From an uncultured Clostridia bacterium (GTDB lineage Bacteria > Bacillota > Clostridia > Christensenellales > UBA1242): a stretch of 64,000 nucleotides of DNA. Location: assembly GCA_930990975.1 (NCBI GenBank), contig CAKNRR010000002.1, positions 204-64,203 of the forward strand. Direction: 5' to 3'. This document shows positions 39,042 through 59,623 of this stretch, piece after piece (the stretch's first letter is position 1; every line of letters starts with the position of its first letter). The notes under the pieces are model-generated. The model was not told where the DNA came from. It made no database searches and saw nothing but the letters and a program-made list of their open reading frames with translations. The translations under genes were made by a program, and so were the position numbers.

Positions 39042-39123
39042 GCGGGCGTGGCGGAATGGCAGACGCGCTTGTTTAAGGGGCAAGTGGGAAACCGTGTGGG
39101 TTCGACTCCCACCGCCCGCACCA
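39042..39123 (+). tRNA. tRNA-Leu, anticodon read as AAG (A34), CCA encoded
   Basis: Acceptor GCGGGCG/CGCCCGC, D arm GCG-GAATGGCAGA-CGC, anticodon arm CTTGT-TTAAGGG-GCAAG, 11-nt variable arm with GAAA loop, T arm GTGGG-TTCGACT-CCCAC, ACCA. 82 nt. The G36-G37 context is typical of CUN-reading Leu tRNAs. Confidence 0.85.
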
Positions 39124-41678: not shown

Positions 41679-41694
41679 CTAAAACATAATAAAA

Positions 41695-41953
41695 GCTATG
41701 ATGAAAGAGTAGTAATAGAATTGATTTATCAAAGAGAGTTTGTCCTTGGCTGAAAGACAGATATAATAGATTTTATGAATTCACTTTCTAGCTACATTTA
41801 TGAAGTTTTGCATTGTTGTAATAAAGTGTAAAATGCGTAGTTTATGTCGTTATGCCTGCGTAAATGGTTTTAATAAGGATTGATAAAATCAATTAAAGTT
41901 AGGTGGTACCACGAAAAGTATTCTTTCGTCCTAATAGGAAGAATACTTTTTTT
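41695..41953 (+). promoter_or_regulatory. T-box riboswitch leader, Phe specifier (UUC)
   Basis: GA/K-turn ATGATGAAAGAGTAG. Stem I AGAGAG...TGGCTGAAAG. Specifier gaaTTCA (~41780). T-box AAAGTTAGGTGGTACCACG. Terminator AGTATTCTT...AAGAATACTTTTTTT. Confidence 0.8.
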
Positions 41954-52000: not shown

Positions 52001-53035
52001 TTATTGATTTATTTTTACTTTATCTGCTACATCTTTTCTCATATCTTCACTTATAGCTGCATAATGCTTCTTTGTTGTGTTGACATCTTTATGTCCTAAA
52101 ACATCTGCAACAATATAGATATCATGGGTTTCTTTATAAAGATTTGTGCCAAATGTGCTTCTTAGTTTATGTGGAGATATTTTTTTTAAAGGTGTTGCAA
52201 TTTGAGCGAATTTTTTAACAAGATTTTCAACCGCGCGTATAGATATTCTTTTGTTTTGCAAAGATATAAACATTGCATTTTCGTCTTCAGGAAGATTTAA
52301 AGTAGCCCTTTTTTCTAACCATGTTTTGAGTGCAAGAGCGACTTCTTTAGAAAAATAAAGTGTTGTCTGGTTTCCGCCTTTTCTAGTGACCAAAAAGGCA
52401 TTTTGTGAGAAATCAAAACTTTCAATATTTAATCCGACAAGCTCTGATATACGAATCCCAGTTCCTAAAAATAAAGTAATGATGGCATTATCTCTTTCAA
52501 AAGTGTTTTTGTTGTATTGTTGTTGGTGCTTAGAAAACTCGCAAGGATTTTCAACGGCGTTCATCATTCTGCTGACCTCGTTATTTTCAAGTCTTATGAT
52601 TTCTTTATTGTGTAATTTAGGAGTGTCTATTTTGCTGACTACATTTGATTCTATCATATCATGATTAAATAAGTACTTGAAGAAACTTCTTAAAGATGCA
52701 AGTTTTCTTGCTTTCCCTCGTTCATCATTCTTATATTGTTTGTCGTCTAATTGATAGAAAGACAAATATGACAAATATTGTTCTATGTTTCTTGCTTTGA
52801 GGGTGTTTAAGTCATTTAATGTTATTTCTATTTCTTTTTTATGAAAAACGAATTGTGATAAGTAATTATAGAAAATAAACAGGTCCATTGAGTAGTTGTA
52901 TCTCGTAAGTGATGAAGTGTTGCTTTCTATACCAATAAAAAAGTCAAGACAGTAGTCGGGGAGTCTTTCAGTGTATTTAGACATTTTTAATCTGTTTTGT
53001 AAATCTCGTTTTTCGTAAAAACTTATCTTTTTCAT
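52001..53035 (-). CDS. Tyrosine recombinase, XerS-like architecture
   Basis: Catalytic region GTGIRISEL, VTRKGG, HKLRSTFGTNLY, LGHKDVNTTKKHY (R-H-R-Y). The N-terminal LPDYCLDFF...SSLTRYNYSMDLFIFYNYL resembles the XerS N-domain pattern. Confidence 0.75.
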   Translation of the reverse strand: MKKISFYEKRDLQNRLKMSKYTERLPDYCLDFFIGIESNTSSLTRYNYSMDLFIFYNYLSQFVFHKKEIEITLNDLNTLKARNIEQYLSYLSFYQLDDKQYKNDERGKARKLASLRSFFKYLFNHDMIESNVVSKIDTPKLHNKEIIRLENNEVSRMMNAVENPCEFSKHQQQYNKNTFERDNAIITLFLGTGIRISELVGLNIESFDFSQNAFLVTRKGGNQTTLYFSKEVALALKTWLEKRATLNLPEDENAMFISLQNKRISIRAVENLVKKFAQIATPLKKISPHKLRSTFGTNLYKETHDIYIVADVLGHKDVNTTKKHYAAISEDMRKDVADKVKINQ

Positions 53036-53257
53036 GTTATTATTATATCATTATGAAATCGAAATTACAAATAAAATTTTATTTATGCGTAAAAGTTTTT
53101 TATAATACAGTATATATTGTTTTATATATAAGACATAATACTATATCTACGATAAATTAAATTTTAGAAGAAAGATGTCATGATTGAAAGATATGGAGCT
53201 TTTGGATCGAAACAAGAAACTTATTTCAATATCTGATATGATTTTTTCAATATTTAT

Positions 53258-53286: not shown

Positions 53287-53306
53287 TAACATACGAGGTG
53301 TTAATT

Positions 53307-54627: not shown

Positions 54628-55599
54628 ATGCCAAATATAAATGTATCAAAAGATTTAATTGTTAATATAGCAGAACAAGAGAATACAAAATATATCAAAA
54701 CAGTAAATAAATCAATTAACCAAATTATTGGTCAGGCTATCAAAGATTTGTCTGAAAAGATATCTTTTGTTTCTTTGAAAAATGTTATTTTGCAGCCAGC
54801 TAATGAATTGATTAGCGGAGCTTTTATTGATGCATCTTTATTTATTTATTTGTTAGGAGTTCAGAATCCGCAATTAGAACTAAATACAAATCAAAAAGAA
54901 AGTGCTTGGAAAAGCTTTAAAGACCGAGTTGTTTGGGCATGGAATAATCGCAAAAGATTTATAAAAAGGAAGAAAAAACATAGAAAAAGTAAAAAATCTA
55001 AAGAAATTGAAACACTTGATAATGATTATAAATTTGAACCAAACACATATACAATTTATCAATTAACTGAAGATTTGCAAAAGGCTATGATTCAGTATTT
55101 ATGTGAAACAAGCATGGTATACATGAATGACAATGTATTGCAAATTGTTGGAAAAGATGATTTTGGAGCTAATACGAAGATTATAATTTATGTTGTAAAT
55201 TATGATGGTGAAAAATTCAAATATTATGCAGGCAAAAAAGAAGGTTTTAAATTGATAGACATAGATTCTCGCTTAAAATGTCTTGAAAATAAAATAATGA
55301 CAGTAGGTGAAAATTTTATCAAAATTCTTAAGGTGTTTAATTCATTGTATTATAATATAAATGGCATTATGTGTAATCAAATTTTTATGGAAAGCATTTT
55401 GTGTTCATGTCCAGAAGATTTGTTTTTTGGTGATGACATTTATAAAGTATTTGTAAAAATAGTTAATTATTTATCTATAAAAACACTGAAAGATATTAAG
55501 TCAATAAACAATTCGCAATTAACCATATTTAAAGATGAAATTTGTGGAAACTGCGGATTAGGATTCAATAAAATGCTTTCTAAAATATTGAAGAATTAA
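54628..55599 (+). CDS. Hypothetical protein, nucleotidyltransferase-fold-like (SMODS/CD-NTase-like layout) with degenerate catalytic motifs and a poly-basic insert
   Basis: ISGAFIDASLFIYLLG sits where hG[GS]...DhDh is expected. C-terminal FMESILCSCPEDLFFGDD resembles the LE.L.YN.P..F helix of SMODS-type NTases. The insert is NRKRFIKRKKKHRKSKKSKE. The fold call is tentative. Confidence 0.35.
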   Translation: MPNINVSKDLIVNIAEQENTKYIKTVNKSINQIIGQAIKDLSEKISFVSLKNVILQPANELISGAFIDASLFIYLLGVQNPQLELNTNQKESAWKSFKDRVVWAWNNRKRFIKRKKKHRKSKKSKEIETLDNDYKFEPNTYTIYQLTEDLQKAMIQYLCETSMVYMNDNVLQIVGKDDFGANTKIIIYVVNYDGEKFKYYAGKKEGFKLIDIDSRLKCLENKIMTVGENFIKILKVFNSLYYNINGIMCNQIFMESILCSCPEDLFFGDDIYKVFVKIVNYLSIKTLKDIKSINNSQLTIFKDEICGNCGLGFNKMLSKILKN

Positions 55600-55800
55600 A
55601 GCAAAAAGTAATAGAACAAGATTTGTATATAAAGAATTATAAAAAAGGTTTTGTTTAAAGAATGCTATTATGAAAAATTGTTTTAATATAAAAAGGATTA
55701 AGCTATGATTTAAAAATATGAATATTAATGATTATTTATGCAAATAAAATAATTATTAAAAAATAACATAATAGACTTTATTTTACCGGTATTATGTGCT

Positions 55801-55836
55801 TATCTCTGCGTAAAACTTGTGTTTTACGCAGAGATA
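55801..55836. other. 16-bp perfect hairpin / palindrome with 4-nt loop
   Basis: TATCTCTGCGTAAAAC-ttgt-GTTTTACGCAGAGATA read directly. No adjacent U tract on either strand. Confidence 0.85.
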
Positions 55837-55884
55837 TAGATGTTGCACTTCCTTTTTAAAATGTTGGTTTTAATAAAAAATACA

Positions 55885-56122
55885 GACCCCTTTTAGCGAT
55901 TTTTGTCAATACAAACAGCAAGAAAGTTTATCATATACCCCTTTTCCCTACAAATTTTATGCCCCTATTATTTAATTTCATTTTAAAACTCACCTATTAT
56001 CAAATTTTTGATTTTTATATAATTATGGAGTTGCTCTAATTAATGCTTATGCCTACTTAGTAATTTATTACATGTAGAGTCTCTATTAAAAAACAAGCTT
56101 ATAAATTTGAGCTTGTTTTTTT
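55885..56122 (+). ncRNA. Candidate small RNA with three C-rich motifs, ending at an orphan terminator (speculative)
   Basis: GACCCCTTTTAGCG (~55885), ATACCCCTTTTCCC (~55935), GCCCCT (~55961). The terminator at 56087-56122 has no track ORF (60 aa or longer) within ~250 nt on either side. No convincing promoter found. Confidence 0.2.
56087..56122. terminator. Bidirectional rho-independent terminator in the region with no track ORF
   Basis: AAAAAACAAGCT-tataaatttg-AGCTTGTTTTTTT. Confidence 0.7.
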
Positions 56123-56385
56123 GTAACTTACTTTAAAATTTGTCTAAACCTCATCACACATTATAATGCCATATCGCTTTTTATGTAAATTTGGAGCAAT
56201 TGATGATATAATTGACTTCATTTGTTCTTTTATAATAAAGAAGAATTATTCATTCCCCTGCTTTCTATTTTCGATTGCACTTTTCTTATATGTTGGTATG
56301 GAAAAATAATCTTGATATATTGGGATTTTTCACTAATTGATATAATTCTTTTTGTTATATAACTTATAATCGATCTTTATTTGTT

Positions 56386-56973
56386 TCATACTACTTTTGT
56401 TCTGAGTAAAAATGCATAGTTTTTCAATTCTCTCCTATATTGTTTATAATTAGGCACAAATTGTTCAACTAAAGCCCAAAACTTTTTTGAGTGATTGAAT
56501 TCTATACCATGACATAGTTCATGCAAAATAATATATTTTATTATATCTAAAGGTAAAATGATTATTTTCCAATTTAAGCTCATATTCTTATGATAGTCTA
56601 AACTACCCCATATTCGAACGGAGTTCATTATCCTTAAATTTTTGAATTGTAAATTAAGTCGCAATGACATTTCTTCCACTATCTTTTTTATATCATTGTC
56701 AAACGCAGATTTGTAAAAATCAATTTTATTTCCATCAAATTTTATAGGAGTATTATAAATGTAAACATAATTTTCAAAGTCGTATTGAGATCTTTTATTA
56801 TGTAATTCTTCTATAGACTTCAATTGTTTTTTGATCCACTTATTCTTCGAAATAACAAAATCGTCTATAATATCTTTAGAGATATTTCTGGGAGCATTTA
56901 CAATAACTTCTCCGCTGCTATTTATCCTTATAGAAAGTCTTTTAATTTTAGCCCTTTTTAATATGTATTCCAT
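56386..56973 (-). CDS. DUF45 / YgjP-like M48-family metal-dependent hydrolase
   Basis: IKRLSIRINSSGEVIVNAP N-terminus and the zinc motif ILHELCHGIEFNHSKKFW (HExxH). Confidence 0.7.
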   Translation of the reverse strand: MEYILKRAKIKRLSIRINSSGEVIVNAPRNISKDIIDDFVISKNKWIKKQLKSIEELHNKRSQYDFENYVYIYNTPIKFDGNKIDFYKSAFDNDIKKIVEEMSLRLNLQFKNLRIMNSVRIWGSLDYHKNMSLNWKIIILPLDIIKYIILHELCHGIEFNHSKKFWALVEQFVPNYKQYRRELKNYAFLLRTKVV

Positions 56974-57019
56974 AGCTATTATTATAGCCTCAAACTATCA
57001 AAAAATCAAAGTATTTTAG

Positions 57020-57109: not shown

Positions 57110-59005
57110 ATGGAGTTTTATGCCAAAGGTCAATTATCTTTTTTGATATTAACTTGTTTGCTCGAAAGAGATTTCTATGGGCTTGATTTTATAAGTGAGA
57201 TATATAATAAAAGCAATGGGCGCATAGAATTAAAAAAGCCTAGTGTTTATTCTAACCTAACCAGAATGGAAAAACAAGGTTATGTTTCATCCTATTTAAA
57301 AAGTAGTGATGTTGGACCTAATAGAAAATATTATTCTATTACTGAGAAAGGAAGAGGTTTTTATAAAGAACTTCAGGAGTATTTTGCAAGAAATAAAATA
57401 GATGTTTTTAGAGATTTCCAAGACGAAGAAGATGTAAGTAATAAATCAGTAAATTTGAAAACTTCTATTTTTGGAAATAAAGATTATACTCAAGCAAGTA
57501 TAGAAGAAGATGAAGAAAACAATGAAGAAATAAATAGTTATATTGAAGAGGAAGCTGATAGCGATTATTTTGATTTCTCAAATTTGAGTAATGATCAGTC
57601 TGACAAAAAACAAGACAATAAAAGCGAAGTTATTGAAAAAAGTGAAACTCGTGAAATTGTTTCATCTTCAAATGATTCCCCTGCTCCTAGCACTATAATG
57701 AGTGAAAGTTTCGAGGAAAAGAATGTTCAAGTTCAAGAAGAAAAATATGATAAAACTACAGTTGATTCAGGGAATAATACATATTCAATAAGATCATTGT
57801 TATCTAATAAAAATAATGATGAAAATGCTTCTGATAAAAGCTTGATTGAAAGCAATGAAAACTCTAATGTGGCAGAAGATACTTCAAACAATAAGCAACA
57901 AGAAGAGAAAAAGGATGATGGAGTTTTCTTAAGCGATAAAACAATTAAAGAATATAACAAAAGACTGTATGATATATCAAAAGATATTAACAAATATAAA
58001 AGAAAAAGAAGTTTTGCAGAAGATCAAATGTCTTTTACTGTCGAGTCGCCTTTAGCTGAGTCAAATGAAAGAACCAAGGCGAATATTGAGGAATTTAAGT
58101 CTTCTATTTTGGAGAATAAGGGTAAGATATCAACAGAAAATAATAATTATGATTTTGCAAAACAAATGTCTTACAGATATAGAAATAATGCCAATGTTAG
58201 AGAGGATACTTCCCCTATTCAAAACAACTATTATCAAAAACCTACGAATAACATACAGAACGAAAGTGCACCACAAGATGACGGAAAATTTATAACTAAT
58301 CGTATAGAGGTGTCTCAGATTGAAAGAGCTAAAAAAATAGAACCTCCAAGGCTAAAAATTGTTCCAGAAACCTCTTCAAGAGATAGTTATAAGATGCCAC
58401 CTCCTAAAAGAGATGTAAATATTGACCCTTCTCATAAAGAAATATTGTCAAAGTTATATTCAAAAACAAAAAATTCTGATGCTATGGATATAAGAGAAGA
58501 TGCTCTATATGACTATGGAGATTTACAAGAATTTTATAAAGATCAGAACATTGAATTTAGCGTTTATAAAAAGCCTGCAGAAAAGAATGAACATAACACA
58601 AATAAGCTCTATTTAATAGTTTCTTTGATAACTTTCTTTGTAGCAAGCGCTATGTCAGCTATCTTGTATACAATTCTTTATAATACATCTTTGTTAAATA
58701 GCTCAACAACATTTTTATATATCTTGCTCCCAGCATTATTATTAATTGATATTGCTTGGAAGTTCTACAACTACAAAAAATATCTAGGTTGGCTACCTTC
58801 TCAAATGTTGCCACAATGGAAAATTTGGGCTATAACATTTTTATTAATTGGATGTGTAGTAGGTCTTAATTTTATATTTGGTTTAGCACCTTCAACATTT
58901 GCACAATTTGCAACAACAACATTATTACCTATTGTTATAATATTTGTTGTTATGCCACTAAGATATTATGTTAAGAGATATTTACTTATTAAATATTGGA
59001 AATAA
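57110..59005 (+). CDS. PadR-family winged-helix domain fused to a ~400-aa disordered linker and a C-terminal multi-TM domain
   Basis: N-terminus LILTCLLERDFYGLDFISEI...PSVYSNLTRMEKQGYVSSY...RKYYSITEKGRGFY (PadR). D/E/N/S/K-rich low complexity follows. The last ~130 aa hold four hydrophobic helices. Confidence 0.7.
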   Translation: MEFYAKGQLSFLILTCLLERDFYGLDFISEIYNKSNGRIELKKPSVYSNLTRMEKQGYVSSYLKSSDVGPNRKYYSITEKGRGFYKELQEYFARNKIDVFRDFQDEEDVSNKSVNLKTSIFGNKDYTQASIEEDEENNEEINSYIEEEADSDYFDFSNLSNDQSDKKQDNKSEVIEKSETREIVSSSNDSPAPSTIMSESFEEKNVQVQEEKYDKTTVDSGNNTYSIRSLLSNKNNDENASDKSLIESNENSNVAEDTSNNKQQEEKKDDGVFLSDKTIKEYNKRLYDISKDINKYKRKRSFAEDQMSFTVESPLAESNERTKANIEEFKSSILENKGKISTENNNYDFAKQMSYRYRNNANVREDTSPIQNNYYQKPTNNIQNESAPQDDGKFITNRIEVSQIERAKKIEPPRLKIVPETSSRDSYKMPPPKRDVNIDPSHKEILSKLYSKTKNSDAMDIREDALYDYGDLQEFYKDQNIEFSVYKKPAEKNEHNTNKLYLIVSLITFFVASAMSAILYTILYNTSLLNSSTTFLYILLPALLLIDIAWKFYNYKKYLGWLPSQMLPQWKIWAITFLLIGCVVGLNFIFGLAPSTFAQFATTTLLPIVIIFVVMPLRYYVKRYLLIKYWK

Positions 59006-59032
59006 AAAATCTCTAAAATTAGAGATTTTTTA
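59004..59032. terminator. Bidirectional terminator between convergent genes
   Basis: AAAAAATCTCTA-aaat-TAGAGATTTTTT. Confidence 0.7.
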
Positions 59033-59623
59033 TTTTTGTTTTGATTTAGTAAAGCTGAGTAATAGATCAATAAATAAGAAAATGATGATTATCAATAAAG
59101 AAAACATTAATATATAAGTTATTGAATTTGAGAAGATTGTACATAAAATAGTGATTGTTAAGGATGATATAAAAGCCCCTATTGATATGGCTATAAAAGC
59201 ATAATGAATGTTTAAATTTGTTAATCCGGCTATCAGGCTACCAGTCCATACTCCAGTTAAAGGCAATGGGACTGCCACAAATGCAGTTAATGCTAGATAT
59301 TTCTTAAAGTTCGATTTTTGGTTGTTAACTCTTATGCTTTTTGAATTATATTTTTGTAAGAACCTGCTTGTTACAAATCCTGTCGTCTTAGATTTGATTT
59401 TTCTTATTATTAAAACAATTATATAGTAAGGAATTATTGACCCTATAAAAGAAATTAAGAAAGCTAAAATTGGAGATAAACTATTAGAACCCCATATTGT
59501 TGAATTCATGGCCAAAGGTATTGAAATTTTGCTTTCCAAAGTTGGGCACATTGAAATTAACAAAACAGCCAACCATACGCAATTTGAAAAATTATCACTG
59601 AAAAAATCTATTATAAAATCCAT
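59030..59623 (-). CDS. Small multidrug export-like membrane protein (COG2426 / PF06695-like)
   Basis: FVAVPLPLTGVWTGSLIAGL matches the family hallmark FVAIPLPGTGAWTGAL. N-terminal CPTLESKISIPLAM sits in place of PIVELRGAIP. Confidence 0.6.
   Translation of the reverse strand: MDFIIDFFSDNFSNCVWLAVLLISMCPTLESKISIPLAMNSTIWGSNSLSPILAFLISFIGSIIPYYIIVLIIRKIKSKTTGFVTSRFLQKYNSKSIRVNNQKSNFKKYLALTAFVAVPLPLTGVWTGSLIAGLTNLNIHYAFIAISIGAFISSLTITILCTIFSNSITYILMFSLLIIIIFLFIDLLLSFTKSKQK

What the first reader, a model, noticed from the sequence alone, without database searches (positions are those of the whole stretch)
55600..56385. ~790-nt island with no track ORF, carrying a 16-bp perfect hairpin and an orphan bidirectional terminator
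- This is the longest stretch without a track ORF (60 aa or longer) in the window.
- It contains a family palindrome (ACATAATA-N16-TATTATGT at 55766-55797).
- Immediately after that comes a 16-bp perfect GC-containing hairpin, TATCTCTGCGTAAAAC-ttgt-GTTTTACGCAGAGATA (55801-55836), with no U tract. By a rough composition estimate it is far too long to arise by chance.
- A clean bidirectional terminator lies at 56087-56122, more than 250 nt from the nearest coding sequence on either side.
- Something is therefore transcribed and terminated here that is not a protein gene of appreciable size.
- The island lies between the NTase-like orphan and a DUF45 hydrolase gene.
Basis: seen in the sequence. 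Interest (0 to 1): 0.55.

Follow-up and report, generated by a model that had tools for sequence, protein, structure and literature searches.

The report
Predicted chromosome dimer-resolution (dif-like) site
The 16-bp "hairpin" is most likely not an RNA gene but the DNA site at the replication terminus where a nearby Xer-type recombinase separates joined sister chromosomes; this site sequence turned up in no paper I could search, and the rest of the gene-free island is unconserved spacer.

Summary
Only about 135 nt around the hairpin (window ~55713-55847) is conserved beyond the species. The remaining ~550 nt, including the "orphan bidirectional terminator", has no detectable counterpart in any other species, phage or plasmid.

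The hairpin reads TATCTCTGCGTAAAA-CTTGTG-TTTTACGCAGAGATA: two 15-bp inverted arms around an asymmetric 6-bp centre.
- It lies where GC skew and gene orientation flip, which marks the replication terminus.
- A 20-nt degenerate core pattern derived from it occurs exactly once in each of 110 GTDB species genomes. About 105 of these are uncultured Clostridia or Christensenellales.
- Oriented by its centre, it has fixed polarity relative to GC skew: 64 of 67 loci, and 15 of 15 in an independent set.
- It is genetically linked to a conserved Xer-family tyrosine recombinase. That gene is 2.7 kb away here and 45-330 bp away in distant relatives, on either side.
- Arm mismatches show no G·U enrichment, and there is no Rfam hit.

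The best explanation is a dif-like recombination site of an XerS/XerH-style dif-plus-recombinase module (confidence ~0.8). It is a new variant of a known kind. Recombination itself, and the absence of XerC/D elsewhere in the genome, were not tested.

The parts
55801..55815 (.). Left arm of the dif-like core site (TATCTCTGCGTAAAA)
   Evidence: Read directly. The inner part CGTAAAA was fixed by the search pattern in the 110-genome set. It is independently conserved in syntenic loci found through proteins. Outer positions 9-15 are 83-100% complementary to the right arm across 105 species.
55816..55821 (+). Asymmetric 6-bp central (crossover) region, CTTGTG. It gives the site its polarity.
   Evidence: The flanking C/G 'pair' is C-G in 66% and C·C in 34% of species. 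In loci found through the protein, the centre varies (CTTGAA, GCCGTG, GCTGCA, CTCGTG, GCTGTG, CTTGCC, CTTGTC) while the arms stay. Oriented by this region, GC skew is higher on the left in 64/67 and 15/15 loci.
55822..55836 (.). Right arm of the dif-like core site (TTTTACGCAGAGATA)
   Evidence: The outer right arm is somewhat better conserved than the left (information content 1.72 vs 1.21 at position 15). It is retained in lineages whose left outer arm has decayed (L009/L069, L109, L119).
55750..55800 (.). Clade-conserved left flank: block ATTATTAAAAAATAACATAATAG plus the inverted repeat ACATAATA-N16-TATTATGT (55766-55797). Role unknown: possibly an accessory or terminator element.
   Evidence: Conserved in about 35 low-GC relatives as RTTATWAAAAAATAACAWAATAG-N12-14-GCTAGTATGC. 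Absent from the higher-GC species that still carry the core. The exact pattern is unique in the window.
55837..56086 (.). Species-specific non-coding spacer to the right of the core. It carries C-rich motifs on the + strand.
   Evidence: No similarity to other species, to phages or plasmids, and no tblastx hit. No ORF longer than 27 aa. It is 97-99.6% identical within the species, similar to the neighbouring genes.
56087..56122 (+). Intrinsic-terminator-like hairpin with A and T tracts. Species-specific, and stronger on the + strand.
   Evidence: Folds at -19.1 kcal/mol on + and -11.5 on -. Not called by the consensus scan. Not conserved outside the species.
56123..56385 (.). Indel-prone spacer downstream of the DUF45/YgjP gene
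   Evidence: 83-96% identity with 4-25 gapped columns among strains of the same species. No conservation elsewhere.
52001..53035 (-). Xer-family tyrosine recombinase (344 aa), the presumed enzyme acting on the site
   Evidence: NCBIfam full-length matches to XerS (174 bits), XerC (167), XerA (157) and XerD (151), all below the equivalog cut-offs. Pfam Phage_integrase. PDB best hits are XerD, XerA and XerH. A homologue lies within the 8-kb block in 64/110 site-bearing genomes; in distant species its start is 45-330 bp from the site. It is 78-87% identical (the 78-87%-identity homologues listed) in relatives whose DUF45 is only 42-50% identical.
53080..53095 (+). Isolated left-arm half-site (TATTTATGCGTAAAAG), about 45-60 bp upstream of the recombinase start codon
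   Evidence: Conserved as ATCTATGCGTAAAA at the same position in 16 relatives. Also present in L123, which lacks the serS insertion.
54628..55599 (+). 323-aa protein of unknown function: the left-flanking gene, which converges on the island
   Evidence: No family hit. Conserved next to the site in 34 loci of the low-GC clade.
56386..56973 (-). YgjP-like/DUF45 metallopeptidase-domain protein: the right-flanking gene, which converges on the island
   Evidence: Pfam PF01863, E = 3e-43. Present or absent among relatives.

Best explanation
The 36-bp palindrome at 55801-55836 is a dif-like core recombination site. It belongs to the chromosomally encoded Xer-family tyrosine recombinase at 52001-53035.

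**Shown**
- The site has two 15-bp inverted arms around an asymmetric 6-bp centre.
- It is single-copy.
- It sits at the GC-skew and gene-orientation switch.
- It keeps a fixed orientation relative to the replication axis.
- It is genetically linked to the recombinase gene across more than 100 species.

**Inferred from established Xer/dif biology**
- Recombinase monomers bind the two arms.
- When homologous recombination joins sister chromosomes into a dimer, the two copies of the site are brought together at the closing septum. An FtsK/SpoIIIE-type translocase probably does this.
- Strand exchange at the edges of the 6-bp centre then resolves the dimer.

The 786-nt island is the terminus gap between the two converging replichores. 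Apart from the core and a clade-specific left flank, it is fast-evolving spacer. The hairpin at 56087-56122 is most simply a species-specific terminator that stops read-through from the serS-orf323 unit, and less efficiently from the DUF45 gene.
For: **Terminus position in the window**
- GC skew is +0.2 to +0.3 from 1 to 54 kb and turns negative only after ~58-60 kb. The cumulative G-C curve plateaus from 55.5 to 60 kb.
- 32 of the 38 ORFs of 150 aa or more are on + to the left of 55.6 kb, and 5 of 6 are on - to the right.

**Conservation pattern**
- Only ~135 nt around the hairpin survives in syntenic relatives whose flanking DUF45 protein is 42-50% identical. This includes relatives where the whole gap is only 172-176 nt.

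**Copy number**
- The pattern CRTAAAACYTGTSTTTTACG hits 110 GTDB species genomes, once each, against roughly 10 expected by my own estimate.
- Almost all are Clostridia or Christensenellales metagenome-assembled genomes.
- The arm sequence matches nowhere else in the 64-kb window apart from one 3-mismatch match at 53080 (see the half-site part).

**Architecture**
- Arm positions 9-15 are 83-100% complementary, with 2-4 alternative base pairs per position.
- The innermost C/G is unpaired in 34% of species, which implies a 6-bp centre.
- In loci found through the protein rather than the DNA pattern, the arms co-vary as CGTAAAA/TTTTACG, CGTTAAA/TTTAACG and CGCAAAA/TTTTGCG. The centre varies freely in those loci.

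**Polarity**
- Oriented by the centre, GC skew is higher on the left than the right in 64/67 loci (p ≈ 7e-16).
- The result is 14/0 when xer is on the right and 15/0 when it is on the left.
- It is 15/15 in the independent metagenome set, which includes new arm variants.

**Linkage to the recombinase**
- A Xer homologue starts 45-330 bp from the site in distant species and is transcribed away from it.
- This adjacency is described as a hallmark of the single-recombinase XerS/difSL and XerH/difH modules (PMC5357621).

**Similarity to known sites**
- The inner arms (TAAAA-N6-TTTTA) resemble difSL (TTTCCGAAAA ... TTTTCTTGAAA) and difH (AGTTATGAAAA ...) as quoted.
- The site meets the criteria used to recognise the Legionella dif: about 30 bp, AT-rich, partly palindromic, near the terminus, non-coding, with varying flanks (PMC9765430).

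**Against an RNA reading**
- No Rfam hit.
- No wobble enrichment among mismatches.
Against: - No recombination, binding or phenotype data exist. Everything here is comparative.
- I could not examine whole genomes, so canonical XerC/XerD with a canonical dif elsewhere is not excluded. Only the window was searched, and no canonical Firmicutes dif was found there.
- The site shows no sequence similarity to the XerCD-type dif.
- The recombinase scores below every NCBIfam equivalog cut-off.
- The inner 8 positions and the centre were fixed by my search pattern in the 110-genome set. Their invariance there is therefore not independent evidence.
- The strict within-genome symmetry of outer arm positions that vary between closely related species is more than simple protein recognition predicts. 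It would also fit selection for a hairpin or cruciform.
- For the one complete chromosome (OY762275.1, site at about 1.294 Mb of 1.837 Mb), I could not locate the origin to confirm an antipodal position.
- In 23 of the 57 loci with at least 1.5 kb on both sides, the skew drops across the site but does not change sign within the 8-kb block.
Confidence: 0.8

Rival explanations
1. The island encodes a small non-coding RNA on the + strand. It would start at or near the hairpin, which would serve as a 5' stabilising stem. It would carry C-rich motifs that pair with Shine-Dalgarno sequences, and it would end at the terminator at 56087-56122. It could be true in addition to the dif-like site.
For: - A TAnnAT hexamer (TATTAT, TAATAT or TAGTAT, often preceded by TGn) is conserved about 5-8 nt before the palindrome in the low-GC clade.
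- The + strand terminator folds at -19.1 kcal/mol.
- CCCC motifs lie at ~55887, 55937 and 55960, and C-rich motifs occur to the right of the core in relatives.
- Within the species, 55837-56122 is 97-100% identical while the flanking spacers carry many indels.
Against: - No Rfam match, even at E ≤ 10.
- 55885-56385 has no detectable homologue in any other species, although the core is conserved in more than 100.
- In L014 and L015 only about 40 nt separate the core from the next gene.
- Mismatches in the stem are not G·U-enriched.
- The polarity of the conserved element follows replication, not transcription.
- Within-species identity equals that of the neighbouring genes, so it does not discriminate.
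Confidence: 0.15
2. The palindrome is only a transcription element. It would be either a bidirectional terminator hairpin for the two convergent genes or an operator through which the recombinase (or another dimeric regulator) controls the xer promoter. On this reading it has no role in recombination.
For: - It lies between convergent genes in the window.
- In the low-GC clade it is embedded in an outer inverted repeat, GCTAGTATGC...GCATACTAGC, followed by a T run.
- In distant species it lies in the xer upstream region.
- A lone left-arm half-site sits about 50 bp upstream of xer, which looks like an operator.
Against: - No U tract directly follows the stem on either strand.
- Terminator stems do not normally keep 20 or more identical nucleotides across an order-level group whose G+C ranges from 23% to 58%.
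- The element stays conserved when it is 2.5-2.9 kb from xer with two genes in between. Promoter control alone cannot explain that.
- Its orientation is fixed relative to GC skew but occurs both ways relative to xer.
- An autoregulatory role for the half-site is compatible with the full site being dif.
Confidence: 0.07
3. The palindrome is the end or attachment site of a mobile element, with the recombinase as its integrase. Candidates are an integrative element, an IS200/IS605-like hairpin end, or an integron-like site. The variable DNA beside it would be cargo or remnants.
For: - The DNA flanking the site varies from ~75 to ~1700 bp on the right, and the DUF45 gene is present or absent there.
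- serS and orf323 lie between a left-arm half-site and the full site, as after an integration.
- Tyrosine recombinases are typical integrases.
Against: - There is one copy per genome in 110 species.
- No second full site or direct repeat delimits an element.
- The recombinase is 78-87% identical across species (homologues listed), with vertically conserved synteny of housekeeping genes: spoIVB, serS, RNase Y, tgt, queA and ruvABC.
- No match in phage, plasmid or viral collections.
- The constant terminus position and polarity fit a chromosomal site.
- Elements exploiting the site (IMEX) remain possible as a consequence of its being dif.
Confidence: 0.04
4. The island is a decayed protein-coding gene.
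For: It is the longest ORF-free gap in the window, and its neighbour DUF45 is lost in several relatives.
Against: No tblastx similarity of 55840-56385 to any of the 110 GTDB pattern-derived related loci at E ≤ 0.1. No long ORF fragments. No nucleotide similarity elsewhere in the window or in phage and plasmid collections.
Confidence: 0.03

Closest known systems
XerS/difSL of streptococci and lactococci (Le Bourgeois 2007; Nolivos 2010; reviewed in PMC5357621)
   Same: - A Firmicute system in which the dif site is genetically linked to a ~350-aa Xer recombinase gene. In distant relatives of this organism the site lies 45-330 bp upstream of xer.
- The best NCBIfam match of the recombinase is the XerS model, aligned over its full length.
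- The inner arms are A4/T4 runs flanking the centre: difSL has TTTCCGAAAA ... TTTTCTTGAAA, and this site has GCGTAAAA ... TTTTACGC.
- One arm is better conserved than the other.
   Different: - The XerS score of 174 bits is well below the equivalog cut-off of 267, and it is barely above the scores for XerC, XerA and XerD.
- The arm sequence differs.
- The centre here is 6 bp, against the reported 11 bp (8 bp by other counts) for difSL.
- The arms here are a near-perfect 15-bp palindrome, whereas difSL arms are imperfect and of unequal length.
- In this window the gene is 2.7 kb from the site.
XerH/difH of Helicobacter and Campylobacter (Debowski 2012; Bebel 2016)
   Same: - A single recombinase with an adjacent, strongly palindromic site with a 6-bp centre.
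- The left arm AGTTATGAAAA ends in A4, as here.
- Located at the terminus.
   Different: - XerH is only a weak match (PDB 5jjv, E = 7e-10, catalytic domain only). E. coli XerD matches at 3e-18.
- Different phylum and different arm sequence.
XerL/dif of Legionellales (PMC9765430)
   Same: An order-wide dif/Xer pair that homology searches had missed. It was recognised by the same criteria met here: about 30 bp, AT-rich, partly palindromic, single copy, at the GC-skew maximum, non-coding, with varying flanks.
   Different: XerL was shown experimentally to be necessary and sufficient, and it is very divergent from other Xer proteins. The protein here is a recognisable Xer-family member, and nothing has been tested experimentally.
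Canonical XerC/XerD-dif (E. coli; B. subtilis CodV/RipX-dif)
   Same: The function proposed, the terminus location, the single copy, and the layout of two arms plus a 6-bp centre.
   Different: - No sequence similarity to the 28-bp dif consensus: there are 0 matches within 3 mismatches in the window.
- The arms are symmetric, which suggests one protein binds both arms rather than two paralogues.
- The site is linked to the recombinase gene, whereas xerC and xerD are normally unlinked to dif.
Intrinsic bidirectional terminators of AT-rich Firmicutes
   Same: A perfect long hairpin between convergent genes. The window has a genuine example of equal stem length at 59000-59035.
   Different: - The 55801 hairpin has no flanking A and T tracts.
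- Its sequence is conserved across more than 100 species.
- Its polarity is tied to replication.

Membership tests
dif site (chromosome dimer resolution site) | Single copy per chromosome | tested here: met
   The arm is unique in the 64-kb window. The core pattern occurs exactly once in each of 110 different GTDB assemblies, and no assembly appears twice. Most assemblies are fragmented MAGs, so a second copy on a missing contig cannot be excluded.
dif site (chromosome dimer resolution site) | Located at the replication terminus (GC-skew switch), with fixed orientation relative to the ori-ter axis | tested here: met
   In the window, skew and gene orientation flip at 55.5-60 kb. Oriented by the centre, skew is higher on the left in 64/67 loci and in 15/15 independent loci. 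Distance to oriC could not be measured in a complete genome.
dif site (chromosome dimer resolution site) | Two inverted recombinase-binding arms of about 11 bp or more, flanking a 6-8-bp central region | tested here: met
   15-bp arms and a 6-bp centre, CYTGTS. The innermost C/G is unpaired in 34% of species. The centre varies while the arms persist in protein-ascertained loci.
dif site (chromosome dimer resolution site) | Non-coding location with flanking genes that vary between species | tested here: met
   The site is intergenic in the window and in every syntenic locus inspected (L001-L015), and gene content on both sides varies among the 110 loci.
dif site (chromosome dimer resolution site) | A cognate Xer-family tyrosine recombinase is encoded in the genome | tested here: met
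   The 344-aa Xer-family protein at 52001-53035. By my reading of its sequence it has the R-K-H-R-H-Y catalytic residues (R195, K219, H289, R292, H315, Y325). Five of these six are invariant in alignment A1 (H315 in ≥90%).
dif site (chromosome dimer resolution site) | The site is recombined by the Xer protein(s), and its loss gives a dimer-resolution defect | not testable with these tools
   Requires in vivo or in vitro recombination assays and mutants.
dif site (chromosome dimer resolution site) | Sequence similarity to the canonical 28-bp XerCD dif consensus | tested here: not met
   0 matches within 3 mismatches to the Firmicutes consensus in the window. Relaxed-pattern hits are at chance level. 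This feature is also not met by difSL, difH or the Legionella dif.
Single-recombinase Xer module (XerS/XerH type) | The dif site is genetically linked (adjacent) to the recombinase gene | tested here: met
   The site is 45-330 bp from the xer start in about 45 distant species, and 2.4-2.9 kb away with conserved synteny in the window's clade. About 30 of 75 protein-ascertained loci have a related palindrome within 450 bp upstream.
Single-recombinase Xer module (XerS/XerH type) | Only one Xer recombinase is needed; there is no XerC/XerD pair | not tested
The symmetric arms suggest that one protein binds both, but that is inference.
Single-recombinase Xer module (XerS/XerH type) | The recombinase is an orthologue of XerS or XerH | tested here: not met
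   XerS model: 174 bits against a cut-off of 267, with XerC, XerA and XerD nearly as good. XerH structure: E = 7e-10, against XerD at 3e-18. The protein is a separate Xer lineage.
Structured non-coding RNA / sRNA gene | Match to a described RNA family | tested here: not met
   No hit at gathering thresholds in the window region. Only chance-level hits (E ≥ 0.27) at E ≤ 10.
Structured non-coding RNA / sRNA gene | Covariation of RNA type, with G·U tolerated and loop and closing pair maintained | tested here: not met
   The arms covary, but the non-complementary cells are 11 GT, 5 AC and 46 other, which is close to random proportions. The innermost pair is C·C in 34% of species.
Structured non-coding RNA / sRNA gene | A discrete transcript with defined ends | not testable with these tools
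   No expression data were available.

The most novel reading that the evidence does not exclude
The palindrome and its linked recombinase form a previously undescribed dif/Xer system. It would serve a whole order-level group of mostly uncultured gut Clostridia (Christensenellales and related low-GC lineages) and would stand alongside XerS, XerH, XerA and XerL.

It would have an unusual feature: 15-bp arms that drift in sequence between species yet remain perfectly symmetric within each genome. That symmetry suggests one of two things. Either the site must also form a hairpin or cruciform, or the two arms homogenise each other. Neither has been described for a dif site, to my knowledge.

The lone left-arm copy next to xer, with serS and orf323 between it and the full site, would then be the scar of an ancient Xer-mediated integration that captured a housekeeping gene.
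Probability: 0.45. Interest if true: 0.65.

Novelty: new variant of a known kind. Interest (0 to 1): 0.5.

Why it matters
**Anchor for genome assembly and growth-rate estimates.** Chromosome dimer resolution is close to universal, but its site and enzyme have been identified in only a few lineages. A recognisable dif/Xer pair for Christensenellales-type Clostridia would mark the replication terminus in hundreds of fragmented metagenome-assembled genomes. These are abundant gut bacteria with very few cultured representatives. A terminus marker helps with scaffolding, with ori/ter-based growth-rate estimates, and with finding elements that integrate at dif.

**Genetic tool.** The pair would supply a compact recombinase-plus-site tool, in the style of Xer-cise marker removal, for organisms that currently lack genetics.

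**Mechanistic question.** It would add a fifth variant for comparison with the known single-recombinase Xer systems. The symmetric but drifting arms raise a concrete, testable question about how a symmetric site achieves ordered strand exchange.

**Lesson for genome scanning.** A long conserved hairpin in a gene-free gap at a skew switch should be read first as a DNA recombination site, not as an RNA.

Tried and rejected
**Rfam.** The whole window at gathering thresholds gave only a T-box (41689-41936) and a tRNA (39042-39120). The island at E ≤ 10 gave only chance-level hits such as snoRNA, miRNA and SAM-V.

**First genome-contig scan.** A scan with the DUF45 protein found nothing. I reached relatives through the search for homologous proteins and the look-up of encoding contigs instead.

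**Canonical dif.** There is no match to the Firmicutes consensus. A relaxed pattern hit the conserved left block (55761-55781, - strand, ATAAAGTCTATTATGTTATTT), and I briefly considered it as a XerCD-type dif. I rejected it because TTATG is not conserved in relatives, which have TTTTG, GTTTG or GTTTA.

**Small ORF through the hairpin.** The 21-aa + strand ORF at 55794-55859 and the minus-strand reading frames fall in different frames in different species. I rejected a coding role (my own reading).

**Decayed gene or mobile DNA in the right part.**
- No tblastx hits.
- No phage or plasmid similarity.
- No viral contig carries the core pattern.
- No second full site or right-arm copy lies to the right of the core.

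**KOPS-like skewed oligomers.** Several 7-mers flip orientation across the site (for example AAGAGAA, 25:2 on the left against 3:11 on the right). This is confounded with coding-strand bias, and only 11 kb is available on the right, so I did not use it as evidence.

**Within-species divergence as a test of constraint on 55837-56122.** Inconclusive.

**Source annotations for the recombinase.** None of the cluster members carries a name.

**Literature.** A search for the core string returned nothing. A search for dif/Xer in Clostridia or Christensenellales found no description of this site.
Full report
**1. The observation**

Reading 55000-57000 confirms every sequence feature at the stated coordinates.
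- The inverted repeat ACATAATA-N16-TATTATGT lies at 55766-55797.
- The perfect 16-bp stem with a 4-nt loop lies at 55801-55836.
- An A-tract/T-tract hairpin lies at 56087-56122.

The 786-nt gap at 55600-56385 lies between the stop codons of two convergent genes. One is a 323-aa protein with no family hit (54628-55599, +). The other is a YgjP-like/DUF45 protein (56386-56973, -). It is the longest internal stretch without an ORF of 60 aa or more.

The hairpin is not a chance event.
- Forty first-order Markov simulations of the window gave longest perfect stems of 9-12 bp.
- The fold has a z-score of -7.6.

Three caveats apply.
- An equally long perfect hairpin at 59000-59035 is an ordinary A/T-tract bidirectional terminator.
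- The "family" label for the 55766 palindrome could not be reproduced.
- "NTase-like" is unsupported.

**2. What is conserved and what is not**

The DUF45 protein led to syntenic loci in strains of the same species (L001-L007) and in distant relatives whose DUF45 is only 42-50% identical (L008-L015).

The gene order is kept: spoIVB, integrase-family gene, serS, orf323, gap, DUF45, PadR-domain gene, and onward to RNase Y, tgt, queA and ruvBAC. The gap itself ranges from 172 to 1362 nt.

Sensitive blastn shows that only window ~55713-55847 is shared. The hairpin and about 90 nt to its left are present even where the whole gap is 172-176 nt.

Everything to the right of ~55885, including the terminator-like hairpin, has no counterpart in other species.
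- No nucleotide similarity.
- No translated similarity.
- No similarity in phage or plasmid collections.

Rfam finds nothing in the island.

**3. Anatomy of the conserved element**

Among the protein-ascertained relatives the core reads as follows:
- CTGCGTAAAA-CTTGTG-TTTTACGCAG in the window and in L014 and L015 (L008 and L009 carry the same centre with partly decayed outer arms).
- TTCGTAAAA-CCTGTC-TTTTACGAAG in L010-L013.

In L010-L013 the arms change in a mirrored way (G...C becomes T...A), but the base next to the "loop" changes on one side only. The element is therefore better described as two inverted arms around a 6-bp centre than as a 16-bp stem with a tetraloop.

A scan of one genome per GTDB species with CRTAAAACYTGTSTTTTACG returned 110 stretches, one per assembly. 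Almost all are uncultured Clostridia, Christensenellaceae, Christensenella, Borkfalkia, Scatosoma and similar, with G+C from 23% to 58%. My rough expectation for chance matches is fewer than ten. About five hits do look like chance (L029/L116, L093, L125).

Across the 105 retained species:
- Positions 9-15 from the centre are 83-100% complementary between the arms.
- Each of those positions uses two to four different base pairs. For example, position 9 is T-A in 46 species and G-C in 50. Position 11 is A-T in 59, C-G in 27 and T-A in 10. Position 14 is A-T in 43 and T-A in 51.
- Complementarity stops at positions 16-17.
- The non-complementary cells are 11 G/T, 5 A/C and 46 other, which is close to random proportions. 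There is no wobble signature of RNA pairing.
- The innermost C/G is C·C in 34% of species.

Positions 1-8 and the centre were fixed by my pattern in this set. Their constancy there carries no weight.

**4. Where it sits**

In the window:
- GC skew is +0.2 to +0.3 for 54 kb and becomes negative only after ~58-60 kb.
- The cumulative curve plateaus from 55.5 to 60 kb. A + strand gene at 57110-59005 delays the maximum.
- ORFs of 150 aa or more are nearly all on + to the left of the island and mostly on - to the right.

This is the signature of a replication terminus.

I oriented each of the 110 loci by the asymmetric centre (reading CYTGTS) and compared skew on the two sides.
- Of 57 loci with at least 1.5 kb on each side, 34 are +/-, 13 are +/+, 10 are -/- and none is -/+.
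- Left skew exceeds right skew in 64 of 67 loci (p ≈ 7e-16).

The polarity of the site is therefore tied to the replication axis.

**5. Link to a recombinase**

The integrase-family gene at 52001-53035 (-) is a Xer-family tyrosine recombinase.
- It gives full-length NCBIfam matches to XerS (174 bits), XerC (167), XerA (157) and XerD (151), all below the equivalog cut-offs.
- Its PDB best hits are XerD, XerA and XerH.
- It is 78-87% identical in relatives listed, while DUF45 in distant syntenic relatives has diverged to 42-50%. This fits a housekeeping role.

tblastn finds a homologue within the 8-kb block in 64 of the 110 site-bearing loci.
- In the window's low-GC clade it lies 2.4-2.9 kb to the left, with serS and orf323 in between.
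- In more distant species (44-56% identity) its start codon lies only 45-330 bp from the palindrome. It is transcribed away from the site and can be on either side.
- The skew polarity holds in both arrangements: 14/0 with xer on the right and 15/0 with xer on the left. The site's orientation therefore follows replication, not the gene.

**6. An independent sample**

I aligned ten of these recombinases and fetched 80 metagenome loci by protein similarity alone.

About 30 of these loci have a strong palindrome within 450 bp upstream of the gene.
- Some have the same arms but other centres: CTTGAA, GCCGTG, GCTGCA, CTCGTG, GCTGTG and CTTGCC.
- Some have mirrored arm variants: ACTATTCGTTAAA-CTTGTC-TTTAACGAATAGT, and TTCGCAAAA...TTTTGCGAA.

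The pattern is conserved symmetric arms with a free, non-palindromic 6-bp (occasionally 8-bp) centre. That is the classical layout of a tyrosine-recombinase core site. All 15 of these loci that could be oriented show left skew above right skew.

**7. Interpretation**

The element meets the criteria used in the literature to recognise dif sites. It is about 30 bp, AT-rich, partly palindromic, single-copy, at the skew switch, and non-coding with varying flanks (PMC9765430; PMC3025954). It also has the hallmark of the single-recombinase XerS/difSL and XerH/difH modules, which is adjacency of site and gene (PMC5357621).

Its inner arms (TAAAA-N6-TTTTA) resemble difSL (TTTCCGAAAA ... TTTTCTTGAAA) and the difH left arm (AGTTATGAAAA) quoted there.

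I therefore read the hairpin as a dif-like site. I infer, but have not shown, the following mechanism:
- Recombinase monomers bind the two arms.
- Strands are exchanged at the borders of CTTGTG.
- Chromosome dimers are thereby resolved, probably under the control of an FtsK/SpoIIIE translocase.

No canonical Firmicutes dif is present in the window. I could not check the rest of the genome, nor whether XerC and XerD are absent. "Single-recombinase" is therefore a suggestion based on arm symmetry, not a result.

**8. The rest of the island**

There it reads RTTATWAAAAAATAACAWAATAG-N12-14-GCTAGTATGC. In several relatives a copy of CTAGTATGC recurs to the right of the core, inverted or direct. Its role is unknown. 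An accessory-protein site, a -10-like element or part of a terminator are all possible.

The hairpin at 56087-56122 folds well on the + strand (-19.1 kcal/mol) and weakly on the - strand (-11.5 kcal/mol). It is species-specific. The simplest reading is a terminator for read-through from serS-orf323.

A species-specific sRNA running from about 55800 to 56122 cannot be excluded. Within-species identity of that stretch (97-100%) is similar to that of the neighbouring genes and does not discriminate.

**9. Novelty**

The full-text library contains no paper with the core string. It also contains no description of a dif/Xer system for Christensenellales or related Clostridia. That library lacks most subscription-journal papers, so this is not proof of novelty.

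The kind of system is well known. The site sequence, the recombinase lineage (below all equivalog cut-offs) and the extended symmetric arms make it a new variant. The arm symmetry remains unexplained. The arms drift between species whose recombinases are more than 80% identical, yet they stay mirrored within each genome, with L010/L062 as an apparent one-sided intermediate.

**10. Verdict**

- The interpretation as a transcribed non-coding RNA island is largely not supported.
- The hairpin is best explained as a dif-like recombination site at the replication terminus (confidence ~0.8).
- Interest is moderate (0.5). The kind of system is known, but it is a well-supported, order-wide and apparently undescribed variant that is directly testable.

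Noticed in passing
window 53080-53095 (and the same position in L001, L002, L010, L012, L018, L019, L034, L045, L053, L061, L071, L073, L097, L101, L105, L109; also L123): A lone copy of the site's left arm (consensus ATCTATGCGTAAAA, with no right arm) sits about 45-75 bp upstream of the xer start codon. In the window's clade, serS and orf323 lie between this half-site and the full site. In relatives without that insertion (for example L036, L123), xer lies 380-470 bp from the full site. The half-site could be an autoregulatory operator or the scar of an integration at the site.
   Followed up: partly
window 59000-59035: A second perfect 16-bp/4-nt hairpin, AAATAAAAAATCTCTA-aaat-TAGAGATTTTTTATTT, lies between the convergent PadR-domain gene and the Sm_multidrug_ex gene. 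It is a textbook A/T-tract bidirectional terminator.
   Followed up: yes
L019, L034, L044, L071, L091, L100, L105 (inverted) and L076, L080, L096, L114 (direct), within about 60 nt to the right of the core; window 55790-55799 (left copy, TATTATGTGC): A 9-10-nt motif, (G)CTAGTATGC, lies just left of the core in the low-GC clade and recurs to the right of the core in either orientation. Where it is inverted it is followed by a T run, so the core is nested inside a larger hairpin.
   Followed up: partly
window ~55887, 55937, 55960 (+ strand); the right flanks of L009, L010, L014 and many of L016-L125: Short C-rich motifs (ACCCCTTTT, ATCCCCTAT, ATACCCT) recur on the + strand to the right of the core in many species, often just after a T run, although the surrounding sequence is not alignable.
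   Followed up: no
L029 4157-4176 and L116 6650-6669: Two betaproteobacterial MAG contigs (Comamonadaceae, Polaromonas) carry AAAAGGCCGTAAAACTTGTGTTTTACGGCCTTTT with near-identical flanks and no Xer homologue in the block. This is probably a chance match to a terminator-like hairpin, but I did not examine it.
   Followed up: no
window 57110-59005 (+): A 631-aa protein with an N-terminal PadR DNA-binding domain, a long low-complexity acidic/Asn-rich middle and a hydrophobic C-terminal part that appears membrane-spanning. It is transcribed against the local replichore direction and is conserved next to the site in 47 of the 110 loci. This is an unusual architecture for a PadR regulator.
   Followed up: no
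window 52001-53035 versus 56386-56973 and 54628-55599, across relatives: The recombinase is far more conserved between species (78-87% aa among the homologues listed) than its neighbours DUF45 (42-50%) and orf323 (34-68%). DUF45 is missing altogether in about a dozen relatives.
   Followed up: partly
window 41689-41936 and 39042-39120: Rfam finds a T-box leader (93.9 bits, just above the gathering score) and a tRNA with a long variable arm. No T-box was reported upstream of serS at 53298.
   Followed up: no
record titles of L037, L067, L082, L083, L106: Several site-bearing contigs with the Clostridia-type gene neighbourhood are filed under unrelated names: Alistipes finegoldii, Rickettsiales, Parasutterella and Acidiphilium. 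This suggests mis-binned or mis-named MAG contigs.
   Followed up: no
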